Shown here: one piece after another, positions 2,279 to 20,000 of the stretch
How the letters are laid out: every line of letters begins with the position of its first letter
How positions within the stretch are numbered: the first letter of the stretch is position 1
Source: an uncultured virus (IMG/VR IMGVR_UViG_2937164673_000001)
Taxonomy: Duplodnaviria > Heunggongvirae > Uroviricota > Caudoviricetes
DNA length: 20,000 nt
IMG/VR virus record: IMGVR_UViG_2937164673_000001
Reading direction: 5' to 3' (one strand)
Notes under the pieces: model-generated
What the model saw: the letters and a program-made list of their open reading frames with translations, nothing else
What the model was told of the DNA's origin: nothing
The model's database searches: none
Position numbers and translations under genes: made by a program

Positions 2279-2542
2279 ATGATTAAGGTAAAAATTTATA
2301 CAAAAGAAAATTGCCCGGCTTGCATGATGACTAAGAAGTTGTTTAATAAGCTGGGCGTAGATTATAAAGAGGTAACAGTTCTTCAAGATAGTCCAATGTT
2401 AGAAGTTTTACGTGAACAGGGGTGGCACAGTTTTCCCGTAGTAGAATGGCTAGACGAAGAAGGCGTAGGAGACGCTTGGTCAGGATTTAACCCAGATAAT
2501 ATTAAGGAGGTAGCTAGTTATTATGGACAAAGCATTGATTAA
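2279..2542 (+). CDS. nrdH: NrdH-like glutaredoxin
   Basis: IYTKENCPACMMTK (CxxC), SFPVV and WSGFNPD motifs. ATG at 2279. Confidence 0.85.
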   Translation: MIKVKIYTKENCPACMMTKKLFNKLGVDYKEVTVLQDSPMLEVLREQGWHSFPVVEWLDEEGVGDAWSGFNPDNIKEVASYYGQSID

Positions 2543-2765
2543 ATTGTTTGAAAAAGAAATGTTTAACAAAGAGAATAGTGAAGATGGGTTTCGTAACTTC
2601 GTTCTTGATTACTATAAAAAACATTCAAAGGATACGTTTGAATATCCTAAAGATCGTTACGAACTTTTAACAAAGGGTGATCCTAAAGCGCAATGGACTA
2701 TGGAAGATATTGTTGTATATTACTTATCTAATAGCGATCAAAAAGGTAAAGTAACTTTTATTTGA
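2523..2765 (+). CDS. Hypothetical protein
   Basis: 80 aa ORF with SD AAGGAGG, overlapping the end of nrdH. Confidence 0.75.
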   Translation: MDKALIKLFEKEMFNKENSEDGFRNFVLDYYKKHSKDTFEYPKDRYELLTKGDPKAQWTMEDIVVYYLSNSDQKGKVTFI

Positions 2766-2806
2766 ACACAACAAAAATATTTTATATTAAATTGTAGGTA
2801 AATCAA

Positions 2807-2835
2807 TTGACAAATATTTTTGTTTGGGGTATTAT
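2807..2835 (+). promoter_or_regulatory. Strong sigma-A promoter for the RNA-gene island
   Basis: TTGACA (2807-2812), 17 bp spacer, TATTAT (2830-2835), AT-rich upstream. Confidence 0.85.
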
Positions 2836-2930
2836 AGATATCGTTGATGAGGAGCAACGCAGTTGCGACCCATTAATAAATCACACAGATCAAATGATCA
2901 CTTCAACATTTCAGGAGTAATCCTGATTAT

Positions 2931-3003
2931 GGACCTATAGTTTAACTGGATAGAACAGTAGTCTTCTAAACTACCAACCTTGGTTCGAGTCCAAGTGGGT
3001 CTA
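2931..3003 (+). tRNA. tRNA-Arg (UCU)
   Basis: GGACCTA/TGGGTCT acceptor, anticodon stem gtagt/actac with loop cTTCTaa, T-loop GGTTCGAGTCC. No encoded CCA. Confidence 0.9.
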
Positions 3004-3005
3004 TC

Positions 3006-3143
3006 GCGAAGAGTGGAAAGACAATAGTGCATTTTGGAAGTACACACTCCCTATATCTTTTAAGTTGATAATACAAATACACCTTTCTAATTTTTAATCA
3101 TCCATGTTTGTCTTTTACAGAGGTTCGACTCCTCTGCTTCGCA
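3006..3143 (+). ncRNA. tRNA-like RNA: acceptor stem + T arm with a ~105 nt insert replacing the D and anticodon arms
   Basis: GCGAAG/CTTCGC+A, T arm agagg-TTCGACT-cctct, inner stem gtggaaagacaa/ttgtcttttac. Confidence 0.7.
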
Positions 3144-3169
3144 TAGGGCAGAAATGCCCGAAATTATTA

Positions 3170-3263
3170 AACATTTATGTGCTGTGTTTGATAATCGAAA
3201 ATTGTTATTTTTTTATCACCTTCTTTTTGTTAACACACTGCGGTTCGATTCCGTTTTGTGTTA
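3170..3263 (+). ncRNA. Second tRNA-like RNA with an inserted stem-loop (weak acceptor stem)
   Basis: T arm gcgg-TTCGATT-ccgt, aacat/gtgtt acceptor-like pairing, inner stem tgtgtttgataa/ttgttaacaca. Confidence 0.5.
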
Positions 3264-3371
3264 TTCCCAGCTAAGTGGTTGGGCTGGGGAACTCCTTTCA
3301 TGGTTAAGCACCTCCGAAATATGAAAGATTGGTTAGTCAGATAAGATATGTGTGATCTTATCTTGACAAGT

Positions 3372-3440
3372 TTCGGTATAGCTCAATGGTAGAGCAACAT
3401 TATGTAGTGTAGATATGTGGTTCGATTCCCATTACCGAAA
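3372..3440 (+). ncRNA. tRNA-like RNA with collapsed anticodon loop
   Basis: Perfect TTCGGTA/TACCGAA acceptor and canonical D arm (gctc-aatggta-gagc). Anticodon arm acatt-ATGT-agtgt has only a 4 nt loop; T stem is bulged. Confidence 0.75.
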
Positions 3441-3592
3441 TTCCTAGAAATAGGTTGTTCCAAATGACGGAAAACGTTTGGAATGTAAAATCACCTAACG
3501 TATGTTCAATAGGTTATATTTTCCATATACCTTTACCTTTACATTTTTCAATTCGATCATTGTTATGTATTTGTTGAAATGCATAACAGGAT

Positions 3593-3675
3593 GCCTAGGT
3601 AGCGAAGTGGTTAAACGCTGCGGACTGTAAATCCGCCACCTTTTGGTTTCGGGGGTTCGAATCCCTCCCTGGGCA
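3593..3675 (+). tRNA. tRNA-Tyr (GUA)
   Basis: GCCTAGG/CCTGGGC acceptor, gcgga-ctGTAaa-tccgc anticodon arm, long variable arm, GGTTCGAATCC. Confidence 0.93.
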
Positions 3676-3711
3676 TTAAGAACTAATATGAAGAAAGGAG
3701 TAAGAGTGCAT

Positions 3712-4281
3712 ATGCCACTTAATGATGACTTAATTAGAGATATTCTGAAAAATGTTGCTATACATGGTGTAAAGGGGAATAACCTTACTAGCATCATAGC
3801 TGAACTTCCTGGATATTCAGAAAAGGCAATTTTGGAAACCCTTAACTGGATGGAAATAAATGATTTCATTGGTAAAACACAATTAGAAAACTACATTCTA
3901 TCTTATTATGGACGGTATGTGTTTGGAGTTATCGCCGATGATTCAGTTTGGGAATACGCAAAAAGCGAGTACACCAAACGAAATTGCAAAACATGGTCTT
4001 GGAGTTCTAAGGTTAGAATTGCCACTCAATACCTGAAAAAGTATGATCCTGAGGCTCCTGTAAAATTTGACTATTTGCCATATAAGAATGAGGAAAAAGG
4101 CACCTTATATTACTACAAAGATAAAGAGGGCAATAACATTCCTGCCTTTGGTGATTATAAGGGCGCATCGATTATGATTGACGACAAGAATGTTGATCGA
4201 GTTTTAGAGTTCTTTCCACAAGCTAAGAATAACTTATATGTGGTATATCAAGGTGTGGAATTCAAGATTAATAATGTTTAA
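3712..4281 (+). CDS. DUF2513-like protein with C-terminal extension
   Basis: SD AAAGGAG at ~3694-3700; start ATG 3712 or GTG 3706. LNDDLIRDIL...LSYYG...IADDSVWEYAK resembles the DUF2513 pattern as recalled. Confidence 0.6.
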   Translation: MPLNDDLIRDILKNVAIHGVKGNNLTSIIAELPGYSEKAILETLNWMEINDFIGKTQLENYILSYYGRYVFGVIADDSVWEYAKSEYTKRNCKTWSWSSKVRIATQYLKKYDPEAPVKFDYLPYKNEEKGTLYYYKDKEGNNIPAFGDYKGASIMIDDKNVDRVLEFFPQAKNNLYVVYQGVEFKINNV

Positions 4282-4294
4282 CCATTTAATGGTG

Positions 4295-4700
4295 AGAAGT
4301 AGGGTAGGACAGCAGGCGACCTAAGCCGCACGAAACTGTCCATGTTGCGGCAGGCAGTTTACTGAAAGTTCTTCTGCCAGTAAAATGATTCTTTTATAAA
4401 GTTTTTGCGTCTTTAAATTGCTGTTGTAACAGCGATAAGATAATAAACTTATTTATATAATCTGATTACGGCTCACGTAGGGCTTCGAAATACAGCATAA
4501 TTACCCACCTCGGTGTTCGTGTGAATACAAAAGAAATAGGTATGACAGATAAGAAAGAGGCTGTCTTGTTCAAGATTAATCAGATTAACGTGGAGCTTGA
4601 CTCCTTAATGGCTTGGGGCGAATTCGTCCTCGTGTTGATGTCTTTTGCTGACAAGTTTCAACCGTCACGTAAAAGCGGAAATGAAACGATACATGTATTA
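4295..4700 (+). ncRNA. Unassigned structured RNA(s): pseudoknot, long hairpin and multibranch domains
   Basis: ggacag/ctgtcc crossed by gccgca/tgcggc; 10 bp closing stem aatctgatta/taatcagatt (4459-4586); several more hairpins. Confidence 0.5.
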
Positions 4701-4708
4701 TGTTTGGA

Positions 4709-4763
4709 AGCCTTGTCTGATGGTGCCAGGAAGATTGATTGGGTTCGATCCCCAACAAGGCTA
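4709..4763 (+). ncRNA. Mini tRNA-like RNA (55 nt) lacking an anticodon arm
   Basis: Perfect AGCCTTG/CAAGGCT+A, D-like hairpin ctg-atggtgc-cag, T arm ttggg-TTCGATC-cccaa. Confidence 0.75.
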
Positions 4764-5018
4764 TTTCAGATAGTTCTTTATAGAATGGTCAGCTTAAGAT
4801 CGACTGAACTGTCTGAAAATGATTTGCCTAGTTATAGACCACATCTTCGCAATGCGAAGGTATCTACTAGAAATAGTAGTGATTAATCGCGGACAGAATT
4901 GCTAAGTTAATGTCCATCAAAAAGATATAAGCTCTAAGAGTAATCAGATTGATACTTAGCACAATCAACAAGCTCTTAACTTATCAGTTCACCATCTAAC
5001 GTTTCTGGGTGGATAACT
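4764..5018 (+). ncRNA. Unassigned structured RNA with an 8 nt loop-loop complement
   Basis: 13 bp stem tttcagatagttc/gaactgtctgaaa. Hairpin loop TGCTAAGT (4900-4907) is complementary to ACTTAGCA (4954-4961). Confidence 0.55.
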
Positions 5019-5020
5019 AT

Positions 5021-5092
5021 TGCCTTATCGTCTAATTGGTAGGACACGACTCTTTGGAAGTCGCAATGTTGGTTCGAGACCAGCTAAGGCAA
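5021..5092 (+). tRNA. tRNA-Gln (UUG)
   Basis: TGCCTTA/TAAGGCA acceptor, cgact-ctTTGga-agtcg anticodon arm, GGTTCGAGACC. Confidence 0.92.
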
Positions 5093-5094
5093 TT

Positions 5095-5212
5095 AACTTG
5101 ATAAATTATCCCTTCGCGGTGGCAAGGTTAGTGTCTCCACCTAAGTTTGCCGAGAATGGGCTGTTTACAGCGCACAAAGTGGAGTCGGTGCCATTCGGTA
5201 ATTTATCAAGTT
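5095..5212 (+). ncRNA. Unassigned ~118 nt structured RNA with kissing loops
   Basis: 16 bp closing stem aacttgataaattatc/ggtaatttatcaagtt encloses two arms whose loops carry CTCCAC (5135-5140) and GTGGAG (5179-5184). Confidence 0.6.
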
Positions 5213-5404
5213 TTGGTTCTAGTGTGCCGTCGCTAGAATTGTATTTCACTTAACGGAGCGGAGAGTAAATCCAGTATGTCCTTGGAAACATAGACTGTAA
5301 AACTGGTGTCTCGAAGTCAACACGAGGGTAGAATACCTGGTATTGTTGGCATGTGATAGCAGCGGGGTGTAGCTGCGAATATAAATAAATCACCTCTTTA
5401 TTAC

Positions 5405-5481
5405 ACTCCAGTAACTCAGTCAGGTTAGAGTGCACAACTTATAATTGTGAGGTCGCTTTGGTTCAAATCCAGCCTGGAGTA
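5405..5481 (+). tRNA. tRNA-Ile (UAU) with a 2 nt bulge in the T stem
   Basis: ACTCCAG/CTGGAGT acceptor, cacaa-ctTATaa-ttgtg anticodon arm, gc(tt)tgg-TTCAAAT-ccagc. Confidence 0.85.
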
Positions 5482-5494
5482 TTGCCATTATGGC

Positions 5495-5900
5495 AAAGAA
5501 CAATCCCTTTGCATTAAAGGTTACGACCGATCGCAGAGGTTTTATCGAGGGGTTATCACATCCCACTTGCTGACCTGAACAGTTTAATAAAATCAGGATT
5601 TTATAAAAGACAGGTACAATATTCGCTGACGGAACGTAGGCATGTGCGGAATCCGTGAGTGGGGCTAGGCTACGCCAACTCTCTATCGGTAGACAGTAGC
5701 AATTATGTCGGAGATAGGAATGAGTGATGTTAAGGTCTTGAAATGAGTCTCCCTTAACAAGAACATATCAAAACATTCAGCGAGTAACGACAGCGCCCCT
5801 TAGCAGGGATAAGGACTATGCCCATCCTATGAAGCTAGTAGGAATAAATGTGGAATAAGGCAAAAGCTGTTAGGGGTTCCACCAGAATAAATATTTTGAT
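5495..5900 (+). ncRNA. ROOL-like large structured RNA (compact, ~400 nt)
   Basis: Blocks I recall from ROOL RNAs occur in order: AACAATCC..TTGCA, TCTTGAAATGAG, ATATCAAAA, GAGTAACnACAGC, GAATAAATG..ATAAGGCAAAAGCTG..GGGTTC..AGAATA. Phage tRNA-cluster context is typical of ROOL. Boundaries approximate. Confidence 0.72.
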
Positions 5901-5908
5901 ATATAAGT

Positions 5909-5982
5909 AACACATTAGCTCAGCTAGGTAGAGCACTTACCGAAATGGTAAGAGGTCACAGGTTCAAATCCTGTATGTGTTA
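5909..5982 (+). ncRNA. Full-length tRNA-like RNA with non-canonical anticodon loop (nominal AAA)
   Basis: All four stems perfect (AACACAT/ATGTGTT, gctc/gagc, cttac/gtaag, acagg/cctgt). The loop CGAAATG lacks U33 and purine 37, and C32-G38 can pair. Confidence 0.8.
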
Positions 5983-6044
5983 TAGACTTCATTAAGAAGT
6001 CGATTTGAGTTATTATTTGGAGTTATGATTTAAAGCTCTATTCT

Positions 6045-6419
6045 GGGGTAGTTTATGGATTCGACAGTCAGACAAAGCCCTAAATACGACTTACGGAAGA
6101 TAACGCCGAAATACTTTCATTTAAATATAAAAGCAAATAACCATAGAGTTACAGCTTTAGCTGCCTAGCTTATAGGCACTTGGTTAATATCTTGATACCA
6201 GATAAGGATATTAACTATCATATTTCACCCCTCTGGTCTTAGTTCATGATTTGCTAGTTTGAGTGTGACTAAGTATTAAAACTAGCTAGACTAGGTAGTT
6301 TTTGGAAAATTACTATGTAACGTTCCCTAAGTCGAAAATTTAGAACATAGTCCTATTAAGTCTAAAATGTATTTGGAAACTGGTTTGGTTGGACACGGGT
6401 TCGACTCCCGTCTACTCCA
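6045..6419 (+). ncRNA. ssrA: tmRNA; tag (A)ANNHRVTALAA
   Basis: GGGGTAG...GGATTCGAC 5' end and GGGTTCGACTCCC-GT-CTACTCC-A 3' end with G3:U70. Tag reading frame 6133-6168 ends ALAA-TAG. Confidence 0.93.
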
Positions 6420-6421
6420 TA

Positions 6422-6549
6422 TTCACAACTCTTTCAGGTTGCGGGTTCGAGTCCCGTCTCCGGCACGTGATACATGGTCACAATAGTTGCCAGAGTAGCT
6501 CAATCCTATACTGCTAAAAGGTATACGGCAGAGCGGTCAGACTTGTGAA
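6422..6549 (+). ncRNA. Circularly permuted tRNA-like RNA (T arm and 3' acceptor strand precede 5' acceptor strand and D arm)
   Basis: AGGTT-gcggg-TTCGAGT-cccgt-CTCCGGC-A (6436-6465), 23 nt linker, GCCAGAG-TA-GCTC...GAGC (6489-6534). Closed by ttcacaa/ttgtgaa. Confidence 0.75.
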
Positions 6550-6766
6550 GAAGACGTGTATCCGTCTATAAATGGAAACGTGGCATCTAAGGTTACACCA
6601 CCGTTAATATGTAGCTGGAAGAGGGTAGCTCCCTCATTTGTTAGAAATTTCTTTTAGAAAACCATGGCGATTTAGGTAAACGTAGAACCTAGCTCCTATC
6701 CGTGTAATAAATTTGTGAGCTTAAAACAAGATCTTATGGAATGTTGGTGAGTGTACAAAGCCGACA

Positions 6767-6826
6767 GAGGTAGTAGTTCAATTGGTAGATCATGCTAGGA
6801 TGTGGGTTCGATTCCCATCTACCTCA
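6767..6826 (+). ncRNA. Mini tRNA-like RNA (60 nt) lacking an anticodon arm
   Basis: Perfect GAGGTAG/CTACCTC+A, D arm gttc-aattggta-gatc, 10 nt connector, T arm gtggg-TTCGATT-cccat. Confidence 0.8.
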
Positions 6827-6880
6827 TAGCTATAATTAGCGAAATTCTTTATTACGTATTTACAAACGAGACATACAAAT

Positions 6881-6925
6881 AAAGCGTCACTTTGCGAGAT
6901 TGGTTAGAATCTGGTGACGCTTTTT
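6881..6925 (+). terminator. Intrinsic terminator closing the RNA island
   Basis: aaagcgtcac / gtgacgcttt stem followed by a T-run. Confidence 0.7.
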
Positions 6926-6952
6926 GTATACAAAAATTTAAGAGGAGGAAAG

Positions 6953-7903
6953 ATGGCCGTGGAATTAACTTATCGTAAATTTCCTAAGATTTACCGTTTA
7001 GAGCAAGAAGAGGCAAACTCGAAGCATGAAGGAGTAGCCAGTCTTTTAGAACAGAATAAAGCAGGTAACTACTATGTTGCTACTGAAAAGATTGATGGTG
7101 CTAATAGTTGTATAGAGGTTCTTAAAAGGGACGGAAAAATTGACTTTGCAATTTATTCACATCGTCAAAGACTTAGTGAGGACAATACTTTGCGAGGCTT
7201 TTACGAATACGCACAAGAGGTCTTAATTCCAAAGTTAATGGAATTCTATAAGAATATTGACGAGGCACATGACTATCTCTATGGGGAATGGCTGGTATCT
7301 CATCGAGTTGAATATCAACAAAAAATGTACAACCATTGGTATTTCTTTAGTTTTTATGATGATCTATTCGGTCATGAATATAATTTCTTTGAACGTACTG
7401 CTTTTGCCGATCGAGTAGGGTTAAGACAGCCGAATGTAGTTAGTATGGCAAACTACACTTTAACCAAAGAAGATATCAAGACGATGGTTGGAAGATCAAT
7501 GATTACAAAGGAACCAGATCATGGTGAAGGAATAGTTATCGAATGTGATGGCGTTCGAGCAAAGGTAGTGTCTGATAAGTTTAAAGAAACTCGAAAGCAA
7601 AAGAAACCACAGCCATCTCAGACCGAAAGCGAGAAGTTCATTGATGAGACAATTACGGAAGCTCGCATTACCAAAATGATTGAAAAGTTTAAAGATGAAA
7701 ATCTTTTACCAGATGTAATTGATTTTGAACATTTTGGTGATATTGCTAGACCACTAGCCAATGCGTTGTGGAATGATGTCATTGAAGAAGAAGGCAGCAA
7801 TGCACCAGAATTGTTTGATGTGAAGAAGGCACGCAAACGATTAAATAAGATTATCTCAAAATATGTCCGAGAATTAATTGAAAATGAAATGATGAGTGTT
7901 TAA
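6953..7903 (+). CDS. ATP-dependent RNA ligase, Rnl2-like family
   Basis: Nucleotidyltransferase motifs: TEKIDGAN (I), LYGEW (III), GEGIVI (IV), AKVVSDKFKE (V). SD GAGGAGG before ATG 6953. Confidence 0.85.
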   Translation: MAVELTYRKFPKIYRLEQEEANSKHEGVASLLEQNKAGNYYVATEKIDGANSCIEVLKRDGKIDFAIYSHRQRLSEDNTLRGFYEYAQEVLIPKLMEFYKNIDEAHDYLYGEWLVSHRVEYQQKMYNHWYFFSFYDDLFGHEYNFFERTAFADRVGLRQPNVVSMANYTLTKEDIKTMVGRSMITKEPDHGEGIVIECDGVRAKVVSDKFKETRKQKKPQPSQTESEKFIDETITEARITKMIEKFKDENLLPDVIDFEHFGDIARPLANALWNDVIEEEGSNAPELFDVKKARKRLNKIISKYVRELIENEMMSV

Positions 7904-18062: not shown

Positions 18063-18896
18063 ATGAGTTTTTATAGTGAACAAGTCGACCAGATGATTAA
18101 TTCAAATACATCAGGTGTTCAGTTACATATTGTTACGAATTTGGCTCCTACACCACAAGCAAATGTTATTATAGTTCACGGGTTGGCAGAATATGCAGGA
18201 CGTTTTGATCCACTTGCAAGTTACTTAGTGCAACATAATTGTAATGTTTTTCGTTATGATCAAATTGGTCACGGAAAAAGTGATGGAAAACGTGGCTTTA
18301 TGAAGTCACCAAATGACCTTTATGAAAATTTGAAAATTATCGTTGGACGAGTCAAACATGATTATCCTAATTTACCATTATTTGTTATTGGTCATAGTAT
18401 GGGTGGTGAGACAGTTTTATTATATACTGCAAAGTATCCTGGTACGGTCGATGGCTTAGTTGTGACTGATCCAGTTTCTATTATTAAGGGGCCCAGTAGT
18501 TTAACTGTACCAATGGATGGCGATGAAGAAACGGAATTTACTAACCAGATTAAAGGCGGACTAGATTGTGATCGCCGAGTTGTAGATAAGTATATTAATA
18601 ATGATCAAGTTCTTCATACACTGACTGTTGGTATTATGAACAATGCAATTTGGCAGGGTGCCTTGTATTTGCGCGAACACTTAGAAAATATTACAGATCC
18701 AATTTTATATCTCCAAGGGTTAAAAGATGGGTTGATTAATTATCAAGATTCGTTGACGGCGTATACTAAGATTAATTCAGTCGATAAAGAGTTGCACGTA
18801 TACCCGTTTTTGATGCATGAAATACTTAACGAAACTAGTCGGAAATGGGAAATCTATGACGAAATTTTACGGTGGATTAATAAGCATCGGTATTAA
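18063..18896 (+). CDS. Alpha/beta hydrolase (lysophospholipase/monoacylglycerol lipase family)
   Basis: HGLAEY, GHGKS, GHSMGG nucleophile elbow, LQGLKD and MHEILNE motifs. Confidence 0.92.
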   Translation: MSFYSEQVDQMINSNTSGVQLHIVTNLAPTPQANVIIVHGLAEYAGRFDPLASYLVQHNCNVFRYDQIGHGKSDGKRGFMKSPNDLYENLKIIVGRVKHDYPNLPLFVIGHSMGGETVLLYTAKYPGTVDGLVVTDPVSIIKGPSSLTVPMDGDEETEFTNQIKGGLDCDRRVVDKYINNDQVLHTLTVGIMNNAIWQGALYLREHLENITDPILYLQGLKDGLINYQDSLTAYTKINSVDKELHVYPFLMHEILNETSRKWEIYDEILRWINKHRY

Positions 18897-19103
18897 TTAA
18901 GGTGAAAGGGCCATTGCTAACGTGATGACTCTTTTTTGTTTGCCATTAAATAGTATTATGTACAAGCGCAACTAGAATAGTAAAATAGGATTAAAATATT
19001 ATTGATGTCGCATTAAAACAAGAATTTTAATGACTGGTTATAACACGAAAGACTCATGAACACATCACTGAGTATTCACTGACTACTCAATTCCCCTCTT
19101 TCA

Positions 19104-19220
19104 TGCTATAATATAGGTACACAAAAAGCAGGCCCGTTAAAAAGACGGTGGCCATGTGACATCAGATCAGTAAAAGATCGTCCTGCAACCTGCCAAAGTT
19201 ATACGAGGACGGTCTTTTAT
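19104..19220 (+). ncRNA. Putative antitoxin sRNA of the holin-like toxin
   Basis: TGCTATAAT at 19104-19112; terminator aaaagatcgtcct/aggacggtctttt; convergent with the toxin. Confidence 0.55.
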
Positions 19221-19309
19221 TATGCACAAAATGTGAAAATAAAGGTTAGCAATGCGATAATAAATGTCGCAAAGGCCAACATTAACATAAGTGCTTGGTA
19301 AGCGCTCAT
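19220..19309 (-). CDS. Putative holin-like type I toxin (29 aa; not in the ORF track)
   Basis: MSAYQALMLMLAFATFIIALLTFIFTFCA fits the MS..AL.LM.AF..F...LL family pattern. SD GAAAGGA; TGATATAAT at 19400-19408 (- strand). Confidence 0.8.
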   Translation of the reverse strand: MSAYQALMLMLAFATFIIALLTFIFTFCA

Positions 19310-19415
19310 GTGCCGATAATCCTTTCATAATGGTGAAGTCCATATGAACCACCTCCAGTCAGGAATCGGCCACCGTCCTTAAAACTTGCCTGCTCTAGTA
19401 TTATATCATACAGAT

Positions 19416-19450
19416 AAAAAGAGACCCAGGAACCAAAATGATTCCTGGGT
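19416..19450 (-). terminator. Intrinsic terminator of the GGDEF gene
   Basis: acccaggaa/ttcctgggt hairpin with a T-rich tail on the - strand. Confidence 0.7.
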
Positions 19451-19484
19451 TATCTAATAATTGCTATTTATTTTACGTTCTGAA

Positions 19485-20000
19485 CTAGTCTTTAGGGGGA
19501 CGTTTGCGGTGCTGATCTGTAATAATCCAGCCCCGACCATTGTTCTTGACACTATATAACATTTTATCAGCTCGCTTCAAGGTTGTGTCAAGTAATTCAT
19601 CATTCAAACGATCAGTTAAACTACATGAAAAGCTAATTGTTAATTTTATCCCTTCCTTGGTAACAATCGATTTATTATTAAAGAAGTTTTCAATCGACTG
19701 GAGTAATTGATAGACTTCTTCTAGTGAATGGTTAGAAACTACGATCGTGAATTCTTCGCCTCCAAAACGATATACATACCCATGTTTGTGAAATGCGGAA
19801 TGAATTTGTTCACGAAAAACCGTTGAGAAATAATTTAACACTTCATTGCCAACAAAGTGCCCATATGTATCGTTTATCTTCTTAAAATGATCAATATCTA
19901 ATGCCCCAATTACAATATTATGAATTTCATTATTATTAGCTAATCGATTAATTTCTTGACTAAGAGCTCGGTAATTAAGTAACCCTGTTAAATCATCACG
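19485..20000 (-). CDS. GGDEF-domain diguanylate cyclase, 5'-truncated by the window edge
   Basis: Frame open from 20000: DDLTGLLN...DIDHFKKINDTYGH...YRFGGEEF...RADKMLYSVK. Confidence 0.92.
   Translation of the reverse strand, partial: RDDLTGLLNYRALSQEINRLANNNEIHNIVIGALDIDHFKKINDTYGHFVGNEVLNYFSTVFREQIHSAFHKHGYVYRFGGEEFTIVVSNHSLEEVYQLLQSIENFFNNKSIVTKEGIKLTISFSCSLTDRLNDELLDTTLKRADKMLYSVKNNGRGWIITDQHRKRPPKD

What the first reader, a model, noticed from the sequence alone, without database searches (positions are those of the whole stretch)
4709..4763. 55 nt three-arm mini-tRNA, with a 60 nt counterpart at 6767-6826
Seen: both have perfect 7 bp acceptor stems, intact T arms and D-like arms, but only 8-10 nt where the anticodon arm and variable loop belong. 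Their sequences are unrelated, suggesting the same arm was lost twice. Established: the eukaryotic mascRNA is a similar-sized RNase P/Z processing signal. Inference: processing tags, or decoys for tRNA-binding defence proteins or uncharged-tRNA sensors.
Basis: partly seen in the sequence, partly recalled or inferred. Interest (0 to 1): 0.7.

Follow-up and report, generated by a model that had tools for sequence, protein, structure and literature searches.

The report
Anticodon-less mini-tRNAs in phage array
Two small genes in a phage's tRNA cluster keep the top half and elbow of a tRNA but have no codon-reading arm; relatives maintain them, so they most likely mark where host tRNA-trimming enzymes cut, and many other phages carry unannotated genes of this shape.

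Summary
Both elements are real and lie at the stated coordinates (4709-4763, 55 nt; 6767-6826, 60 nt; + strand). Each has a 7-bp acceptor stem, a 5-bp T arm with a canonical T loop, a GG-bearing D region, and 9-10 nt where the anticodon arm belongs. Neither is a strain-specific deletion. The 60-nt form is kept in 5 of 5 relatives examined, and the 55-nt form or a 60-nt variant occupies 11 of 13 homologous slots. Substitutions in both stems are compensatory, with G.U intermediates.

They sit in a 4-kb promoter-to-terminator array of tRNAs, a tmRNA and several other tRNA-like RNAs that cannot decode. A single narrow pattern found at least 28 sequence families of about 57-nt anticodon-arm-less tRNA look-alikes in viral contigs. 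Most of these lie alone between genes.

My best reading (about 45%) is that they are decoding-dead tRNA bodies kept as RNase P / RNase Z / CCA-enzyme recognition modules, like t-elements or mascRNA. No cleavage has been shown. The rivals are a sponge for acceptor- or elbow-binding proteins, a tmRNA-related role for the 60-nt element, and slow decay.

Earlier notes of this scan describe similar elements on other DNA. I found no paper that describes the class.

The parts
4709..4763 (+). 55-nt anticodon-arm-less tRNA-like gene: 7-bp acceptor, 21-nt central segment with GG, 5-bp T arm, discriminator A
   Evidence: R1 model gives 22.5 bits, E 5e-7. On 8 distinct homologs the acceptor is 100% paired and 4 of 7 pairs change on both sides.
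6767..6826 (+). 60-nt anticodon-arm-less tRNA-like gene: acceptor, D arm, 10-nt linker, T arm, discriminator A
   Evidence: RF00005 gives 45.7 bits. R1 gives 58.5 bits, E 3.5e-22. Covariation was counted.
2807..2835 (+). Promoter-like site (TTGACA-17-TATTAT, 11 of 12) at the head of the array
   Evidence: This is a consensus match only.
2931..3003 (+). tRNA-Arg(TCT), first gene of the array
3006..3143 (+). tRNA 'shell': a 6-bp acceptor plus a 6-bp T arm enclosing a ~100-nt insert with a 9-bp stem
   Evidence: Read by eye and folded (z -2.28). T-arm motif at 3122.
3232..3263 (+). Minihelix: a 12-position acceptor/T stem (2 internal mismatches) capped by a T loop, then discriminator A
   Evidence: Read from the sequence. 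T-arm motif at 3242. Partial R1 hit.
3372..3440 (+). 69-nt tRNA-like gene with a 4-nt loop in place of the 7-nt anticodon loop
   Evidence: RF00005 gives 51.8 bits. The 69-nt form is kept in G001 and G002. One acceptor pair changes on both sides.
3593..3675 (+). tRNA-Tyr(GTA)
5021..5092 (+). tRNA-Gln(TTG)
5405..5481 (+). tRNA-Ile(TAT)
5909..5982 (+). tRNA with an aberrant anticodon loop (ARAGORN calls it 'Phe-AAA'). G001 and G002 keep the acceptor and T arm but carry a different D/anticodon core, read as Thr-GGT.
6045..6419 (+). Phage tmRNA, tag ANNHRVTALAA
6412..6564 (+). Permuted tRNA-like RNA in the order T arm, acceptor hairpin, D arm, as in YrlA
   Evidence: RF02553 gives 20.7 bits, far below its cut-off of 69.
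6873..6929 (+). Terminator-like hairpin with a U run, closing the array
   Evidence: Fold z -3.39. The consensus scan missed it because its loop is long.

Best explanation
Both elements are tRNA-derived RNAs made from the + strand. They keep the parts of a tRNA that end-processing enzymes read: a 7+5 bp acceptor/T-stem stack, the T loop, a GG-bearing D region that can form the elbow, and discriminator A followed by U. They have no anticodon arm, so they cannot decode.

They lie in one promoter-to-terminator unit of about 4 kb (2807-6929). That unit also holds 4 ordinary tRNAs, a tmRNA, long spacers conserved among relatives, and five more tRNA-like RNAs that cannot decode.

Proposed mechanism (inferred, not shown):
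1. Host RNase P cuts at the 5' end of each module.
2. Host RNase Z cuts after the discriminator. None of the genes encodes CCA.
3. The host CCA enzyme finishes the end.
4. The modules therefore punctuate the long transcript and set the ends of the neighbouring RNAs.

When a tRNA in such an array is no longer needed for decoding, deletions of its lower half are tolerated while the upper half stays under selection. This gives the observed series: full tRNA, 4-nt-loop form, three-arm mini, minihelix. The released 55-60-nt RNA may be a by-product or may have a second use.
For: Shown here:
1. Structure is selected in RNA on the + strand.
   - 55-nt element: 96.6% of 117 cells pair (0 of 500 shuffles reach this). 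The acceptor is 100% paired and 4 of 7 pairs change on both sides. The G.U intermediates (U.G at pairs 3:59 and 5:57) would be C.A on the other strand.
   - 60-nt element: 4 pairs change on both sides (4 of 500 shuffles), including two acceptor pairs in the distant L110.
2. All 8 differences between the window and G001 in the 55-nt element are compatible with the fold.
3. End features are shared with the true tRNAs. Nine of 9 tRNA, tRNA-like and tmRNA genes end in discriminator A followed by T, and none encodes CCA. The shell and the minihelix do the same.
4. The array has a strong promoter-like site at its head and a terminator-like hairpin directly after the 60-nt element.
5. In an unrelated phage group a 61-nt analogue abuts the 5' end of a ROOL RNA in 2 of 4 loci.
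6. Class-wide context:
   - 40 of 80 fetched viral pattern hits have full three-arm geometry.
   - 31 of 41 loci scanned have no ARAGORN tRNA within 700 nt.
   - 24 of 36 overlap no ORF of 60 aa or more, and 11 of 36 sit between two same-strand ORFs with gaps of 60 nt or less.
7. The minis belong to the phage. All 52 R1 hits on the chromosome of G001 are 71-83 nt long, while the 55-, 60- and 69-nt forms lie on its phage contig.

From papers (passages read): a tRNA-like module with a 7-bp acceptor stem is cut by RNase P and receives CCA in M. smegmatis YrlA (PMC4201824).
Against: - No cleavage, RNA end or small RNA was observed. The RNA runs are contigs and cannot show ends.
- G003, a complete 117-kb relative, has lost the 5' half of the 55-nt element through a 144-nt deletion, so that copy is dispensable.
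- G004 has a full tRNA-Phe in the slot.
- A bare minihelix is thought to be enough for these enzymes (recalled). Processing alone therefore does not explain why the D region and a linker of uniform length are kept.
- The 60-nt element is the last item before the terminator, where the need for a cut is least obvious.
- Folding energies are not exceptional.
- The ORF-context counts are rough. They use my own ORF calls, and some loci are near-duplicates.
Confidence: 0.45

Rival explanations
1. Sponge or decoy. The released CCA-tailed mini RNAs soak up a protein that grips tRNA by its acceptor end and elbow without reading the anticodon. One candidate is a host immune effector that modifies or cuts tRNA 3' ends. 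This would protect the real tRNAs.
For: - The elements keep exactly the acceptor and elbow and discard the decoding arm.
- Linker length is uniform across 40 elements, with a mode of 8-9 nt. This suggests a defined compact shape and not just a cleavage site.
- The minis are on the phage and absent from the chromosome of G001.
- They sit beside an RNA ligase gene (PF09414), in an array whose tRNA cassettes turn over quickly.
- Full-length phage tRNAs are known counter-defences, and CapRel pyrophosphorylates tRNA (PMC13728456, passages read).
Against: - No partner is known and no defence system was linked to the elements here.
- One complete relative lacks an intact 55-nt element.
- My paper searches found no published anticodon-less decoy.
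Confidence: 0.2
2. Decaying tRNA pseudogenes. The arm was lost by deletion, and the remnants persist only because the relatives are close. They have no function.
For: - The array is a site of rapid cassette turnover and deletion. G003 has a 144-nt deletion between short repeats. G004 carries a different tRNA in the slot. G002 has a TnpB insertion.
- Several other elements in the array look degenerate.
- The 55-nt element diverges about as fast as its flanks, at about 85% identity.
Against: - Compensatory changes with G.U intermediates occur in both elements, and no C.A combination is seen among 8 distinct sequences.
- The 60-nt element differs at 1 of 60 positions between the window and G001, while its upstream flank carries large indels.
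- It survives with two compensated acceptor pairs in L110, where almost nothing else aligns.
- Discriminator A followed by T is kept in all copies.
Confidence: 0.12
3. For the 60-nt element only: a relative of the tRNA-like domain of the phage's own tmRNA. It would act on trans-translation, for example by binding SmpB, as proposed for the 'TLD-only' gene of mycobacteriophage DS6A.
For: - Over the acceptor strands, T arm and discriminator it matches the tmRNA 345 nt upstream at 25 of 32 positions. The next best element matches at 17 or fewer. Some comparisons in that call were one base out of register.
- All differences preserve pairing.
- PMC4131195 (passages read) reports the DS6A TLD-only gene and cites work showing that such a molecule inhibits tmRNA.
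Against: - It lacks the G3.U70 alanine mark (it has G3-C70) and has a normal tRNA D arm instead of the tmRNA D loop.
- The DS6A element matches R1 only in part, at 13.3 bits.
- The phage has no SmpB gene.
- The analogous minis in other phages have no tmRNA nearby.
- It is not clear why a phage that carries a tmRNA would block SmpB.
Confidence: 0.08
4. The 55-nt element is part of a protein-coding gene (ORF 4521-4886) and its fold is incidental.
For: The frame is open in the window (141 codons from stop to stop) and, through an in-frame 144-nt deletion, in G003.
Against: - The frame is broken or absent in G001, L192, L205 and L188, and its start differs in L190 and L197.
- There is no Pfam match.
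- The substitutions follow base pairing.
Confidence: 0.02

Closest known systems
t-elements of plant mitochondria (Forner et al. 2007, PMC1920247; only the search listing and the start of the abstract were seen)
   Same: tRNA-like structures that cannot decode and that RNase P and RNase Z use to make the ends of neighbouring transcripts. This is the mechanism proposed here.
   Different: They are organellar, not phage. Their architecture was not compared here. Cleavage is shown for them and not for these elements.
mascRNA, the tRNA-like module at the MALAT1 3' end (PMC8457004, listing only; otherwise recalled)
   Same: A tRNA-like RNA of about 60 nt, cut out by RNase P and RNase Z, that defines the end of a long non-coding RNA.
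   Different: It is eukaryotic and keeps a short anticodon-like stem (recalled). Rfam listed no mascRNA match in 2500-7200 at E<=10.
'TLD-only' tmRNA gene of mycobacteriophage DS6A (Hudson et al. 2014, PMC4131195, passages; locus L328 read)
   Same: A phage gene for a tRNA-shaped RNA with acceptor and T arm but no anticodon arm. The 60-nt element resembles the ends of its own phage's tmRNA.
   Different: DS6A has G3.U70, is about 83 nt long and has an internal helix. Neither element here has G3.U70, and the 60-nt one has a true D arm.
tRNA-like domain of bacterial Y RNA YrlA (Chen et al. 2014, PMC4201824, passages)
   Same: Acceptor, T arm and D arm without an anticodon. One member is cut by RNase P and tailed with CCA. 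A weak YrlA-like, permuted element lies in the same array.
   Different: YrlA is circularly permuted, carries a Ro60-binding stem and is encoded next to Ro60. No TROVE gene was found in G001 or G003, and the two elements here are not permuted.
Full-length phage tRNAs that counter PARIS, Septu and Retron-Eco7 (as summarised in PMC13728456, passages)
   Same: tRNA-shaped RNAs carried in phage tRNA arrays, under pressure from host systems that attack tRNA.
   Different: Those are complete decoders that replace cleaved host tRNAs. These have no anticodon arm.

Membership tests
tRNA (Rfam RF00005) | Score at or above the family's gathering cut-off (29 bits) | tested here: met
   This verdict is for 6767-6826, which scores 45.7 bits. 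For 4709-4763 the feature is not met: no hit at E<=10.
tRNA (functional decoder) | Anticodon stem-loop with a 7-nt loop | tested here: not met
   The Rfam alignment shows 15 anticodon-arm positions replaced by 3 nt in 6767-6826. In 4709-4763 there are 21 nt in all between position 9 and the T stem. ARAGORN calls neither.
Three-arm mini-tRNA class (model R1, built here from 41 elements of other phages and bacteria) | Full-length match to acceptor, D arm, short linker and T arm | tested here: met
   6767-6826 scores 58.5 bits, E 3.5e-22, with no insertion. 4709-4763 scores 22.5 bits, E 5e-7, but the D-arm positions are not aligned.
tmRNA tRNA-like domain / TLD-only gene | G3.U70 wobble pair (alanine identity) | tested here: not met
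The 60-nt element has A2-U71 and G3-C70. The phage tmRNA and DS6A do have G3.U70.
tmRNA tRNA-like domain / TLD-only gene | Binding of SmpB in place of the anticodon arm | not testable with these tools
   No RNA-protein prediction was available. There is no SmpB gene in phage G003.
YrlA / bacterial Y RNA (RF02553) | Gathering score, and an adjacent Ro60 (TROVE) gene | tested here: not met
   Neither element gives a YrlA hit. The neighbouring 6412-6564 scores 20.7 bits against a cut-off of 69. No TROVE gene in G001 or G003.
t-element / mascRNA-type processing signal | tRNA-like acceptor/T-arm stack of 12 bp with a discriminator and no decoding arm | tested here: met
   Both have 7+5 bp and discriminator A.
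t-element / mascRNA-type processing signal | Cleavage by RNase P at the 5' end and by RNase Z at the 3' end, creating the ends of neighbouring RNAs | not testable with these tools
   Only contigs of RNA libraries were available, and these cannot show ends.

The most novel reading that the evidence does not exclude
Phages carry a large, unannotated class of anticodon-less tRNA bodies of about 57 nt that are not mere cut marks. After release and CCA addition they would act as molecular sponges for host immune effectors or quality-control factors that seize tRNA by its acceptor end and elbow. This would be an RNA counter-defence parallel to the known full-length phage tRNAs. The two elements here would be the array-borne members of that class.
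Probability: 0.17. Interest if true: 0.85.

Novelty: new variant of a known kind. Interest (0 to 1): 0.6.

Why it matters
- tRNA finders skip these genes, so phage annotations miss them. One narrow pattern nevertheless recovered 28 sequence families among its first 80 viral hits.
- If they are cut marks, they show how phages shape long tRNA/sRNA and mRNA transcripts with host tRNA enzymes. They would also explain why large phage RNAs such as ROOL sit next to tRNA-like genes.
- If they are sponges, they would be a new kind of RNA counter-defence.
- Either way they give a simple, testable model of which parts of a tRNA remain under selection once decoding is no longer required.

Tried and rejected
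- **Close relatives among deposited phages.** None were found by megablast or blastn for the array or for either element. Only T-arm-length matches to tRNA genes appeared.
- **RNA-ligase search.** The protein-based locus search returned only the two contigs already known.
- **Whole genome.** The window's own genome is not held.
- **RNA libraries.** Four metatranscriptome runs hold parts of relatives' arrays, but only as contigs.
  - In run X18 the contig covering the array (depth 404) stops at 6418, and the downstream contig has depth 34. This fits strong expression of the array but is no proof.
  - Contig ends at tRNA borders are expected from assembly breaks at shared T-arm sequence, so I draw nothing from them.
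  - In that relative, 6736-6824 is replaced by 95 letters that I could not see.
- **Anchor scans.** 33 of 38 viral stretches and 12 of 18 metagenome stretches were chance matches.
- **Folding z-scores.** They did not separate the elements from shuffled sequence.
- **Enzymes encoded by the phage.** No CCA-adding enzyme, SmpB or Ro60 gene was found in the complete relative G003.
- **Papers.** Five searches found none that describes anticodon-arm-less tRNA-like genes of phages as a class. No supplements were read.

Full report
**Setting.** The window looks like part of a large virulent-type phage of a Firmicute.
- The gene after the array is an RNA ligase (PF09414). Its relatives, all below 60% identity, lie in 332 phage records of Staphylococcus, Bacillus, Listeria and Lactobacillus.
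- Close relatives of the window are a 138.5-kb contig that accompanies a 2.1-Mb genome (G001), a complete 117-kb record with terminal repeats (G003), and two fragments (G002, G004).
- Bases 2807-6929 form one non-coding unit. It starts with a promoter-like site (11 of 12 consensus positions).
- ARAGORN finds 5 tRNAs and a tmRNA in it. Rfam adds two more tRNA matches.
- The unit ends in a hairpin with a U run (z -3.39).

**Observation.**
- *6767-6826* passes the Rfam tRNA cut-off (45.7 against 29 bits). Its alignment shows the anticodon arm replaced by 3 nt.
- *4709-4763* is missed by Rfam at E<=10 and by ARAGORN.
- I built a covariance model (R1) from 41 three-arm elements of other phages and bacteria, leaving out all relatives of this window.
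  - R1 finds 6767-6826 as the best hit in the window (58.5 bits).
- The D region of the 55-nt element is only a 3-bp candidate stem with a GG loop. The D stem of the 60-nt element has one invariant U.U.
- The T-arm motif occurs 10 times, all on the + strand inside the array, against 0.05 expected.

**Not strain-specific.**
- The 60-nt element is present at 59-60 nt in G001, G002, G003, G004 and in a far more distant contig, L110. Little else in L110 aligns apart from an 18-nt motif just downstream.
- For the 55-nt element I collected 13 homologous slots through a conserved upstream anchor and through G003 and G004.
  - 8 carry the 55-nt form.
  - 3 carry a 60-nt variant with a different central hairpin.
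  - 1 is G003, which lost the 5' half by a 144-nt deletion between short repeats.
  - 1 is G004, which holds an unrelated full tRNA-Phe(GAA).
- Some metagenome copies are identical to the window and may come from the same source.

**Selection on structure.**
- *55-nt element:* across 8 distinct sequences, 96.6% of 117 cells pair. Slid controls give 35-58%, and 0 of 500 shuffles reach the observed value. The acceptor is 100% paired, and 4 of its 7 pairs change on both sides.
- Two pairs show the full path C-G, U.G, U-A (or U-A, U.G, C-G). No C.A combination occurs. G.U intermediates point to RNA from the + strand.
- *60-nt element:* 4 pairs change on both sides (4 of 500 shuffles). These include G-C to A-U and A-U to G-C in the acceptor of L110, and G.U / A-U / G-C at the first T-stem pair.
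- The samples are small and related, so these are indications and not probabilities.
- The ORF over the 55-nt element is not kept across relatives.

**The array as a whole.** Of about 12 T-arm-bearing elements, only 4 look like ordinary decoders. The remainder:
- the tmRNA;
- a 69-nt form with a 4-nt 'anticodon' loop;
- a tRNA with an aberrant loop, whose D/anticodon core is swapped in relatives while its acceptor and T arm stay;
- the two minis;
- a 138-nt 'shell' (acceptor and T arm around a long insert);
- a 32-nt minihelix;
- a permuted YrlA-like RNA.

Every one of the 9 tRNA, tRNA-like and tmRNA genes ends in discriminator A followed by T, and none encodes CCA. The shell and the minihelix do the same. 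Spacers between the elements are often better conserved than the tRNA cassettes.

**A wider class.**
- Of the 80 fetched, 40 have full three-arm geometry. These give 34 distinct sequences in 28 clusters. Total length peaks at 57 nt and the linker at 8-9 nt. Four carry G3.U70.
- The linker usually reads as position 26, then 2-3 nt, then a normal variable loop. Only the anticodon stem-loop is missing.
- In bacterial genomes 15 of 80 fetched hits have this geometry.
- Of 41 viral loci scanned, 31 have no tRNA within 700 nt.
- Of 36 loci examined for ORF context, 24 overlap no ORF of 60 aa or more. Eleven lie between two same-strand ORFs with gaps of 60 nt or less (rough).
- In one unrelated phage group a 61-nt mini abuts the 5' end of a ROOL RNA in 2 of 4 loci.
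- In G001 the minis are confined to the phage contig. All 52 chromosomal R1 hits are 71-83 nt long.

**Mechanism.**
- The retained parts are those that RNase P, RNase Z and the CCA enzyme read. This is established knowledge, recalled. For a 7-bp-acceptor tRNA-like module it is shown in PMC4201824 (passages read).
- I therefore favour punctuation of the long transcript, with loss of the lower half tolerated once decoding is not needed.
- This is inference. No RNA end was seen.
- The uniform compact shape, the phage-only distribution and the neighbouring RNA ligase keep a sponge role open.
- The 60-nt element's likeness to the phage's own tmRNA ends (25 of 32) keeps a tmRNA-related role open. 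However, it lacks G3.U70 and the phage has no SmpB gene.

**Literature and earlier notes.**
- Five searches found no description of this class.
- The nearest items in print are:
  - t-elements;
  - mascRNA;
  - the DS6A TLD-only gene (PMC4131195);
  - YrlA (PMC4201824);
  - ROOL and GOLLD lying in tRNA arrays (PMC5737381, PMC12990946).
- Earlier notes of this scan describe like elements on other DNA. I used them as leads only.

Noticed in passing
window 3372-3440: A 69-nt tRNA-like gene (RF00005, 51.8 bits) whose anticodon loop is only 4 nt. G001 and G002 keep the 69-nt length with a different tetraloop, and one acceptor pair changes on both sides.
   Followed up: partly
window 3006-3143: A tRNA 'shell': a 6-bp acceptor and a 6-bp T arm enclose about 100 nt with a 9-bp stem (fold z -2.28). 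It follows tRNA-Arg directly.
   Followed up: partly
window 3232-3263: A natural minihelix: a 12-position acceptor/T stem with two internal mismatches and a T loop. Its acceptor letters resemble those of the tRNA at 5909-5982.
   Followed up: no
window 5909-5982: A tRNA with an aberrant anticodon loop (ARAGORN calls it 'Phe-AAA'). In G001 and G002 the same acceptor and T arm carry a different D/anticodon core, read as Thr-GGT. This suggests that tRNA cores are swapped inside a fixed frame.
   Followed up: partly
window 6412-6564: A permuted tRNA-like RNA (T arm, acceptor hairpin, D arm, outer stem) that weakly matches YrlA (20.7 bits, cut-off 69). No Ro60/TROVE gene was found in G001 or G003.
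   Followed up: partly
window 6045-6419: A phage-encoded tmRNA with tag ANNHRVTALAA, identical in tag in all relatives scanned. No SmpB gene was found in the complete relative G003.
   Followed up: partly
window 4452-4609, 4887-5019, 5588-5905: Long spacers between the tRNA genes are 95-100% conserved among relatives, while the tRNA cassettes between them are exchanged. They may be small RNAs in their own right. They gave no Rfam match at E<=10.
   Followed up: no
L017 1759-3258 (G002): A TnpB-type gene (OrfB_IS605 plus Cas12f1-like TNB domains) is inserted in the tRNA array of one relative. The end of a similar gene lies upstream of the mini in L110.
   Followed up: yes
window 18063-20000: The right end of the window looks bacterial. 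It holds an alpha/beta hydrolase and a GGDEF gene; 19456-20000 is 93% identical to the chromosome of G001. A stretch around the rli28 match (19240-19415, minus strand, 71.4 bits) recurs at three places on the phage contig of G001. This could be a phage-host junction, a captured host gene or a chimeric assembly.
   Followed up: partly
L022 2992-3627; L027 2418-3050: In an unrelated phage group a 61-nt anticodon-less mini-tRNA overlaps the first 9 nt of a ROOL RNA (374-377 bits). Sister contigs keep the mini without ROOL.
   Followed up: partly
window 6845-6862; L110 reverse strand 747-764: An 18-nt stretch just downstream of the 60-nt element is identical in the distant contig L110, although the acceptor stem beside it has changed at two pairs.
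   Followed up: no
Genome-contig loci L208, L216, L224, L238, L242, L252, L253, L256 and others: Eighteen pattern hits, the eight named here from Actinomycetota and Mycobacterium genomes, share a different short form: only 4 nt lie between the D-like motif and the T arm, and the end resembles a tmRNA 3' end. I did not work out what they are.
   Followed up: no
G003:C1:17813-17857: A weak 45-nt match to the mini-tRNA model (17.7 bits, E 3e-4) lies far outside the tRNA array of the complete relative.
   Followed up: no
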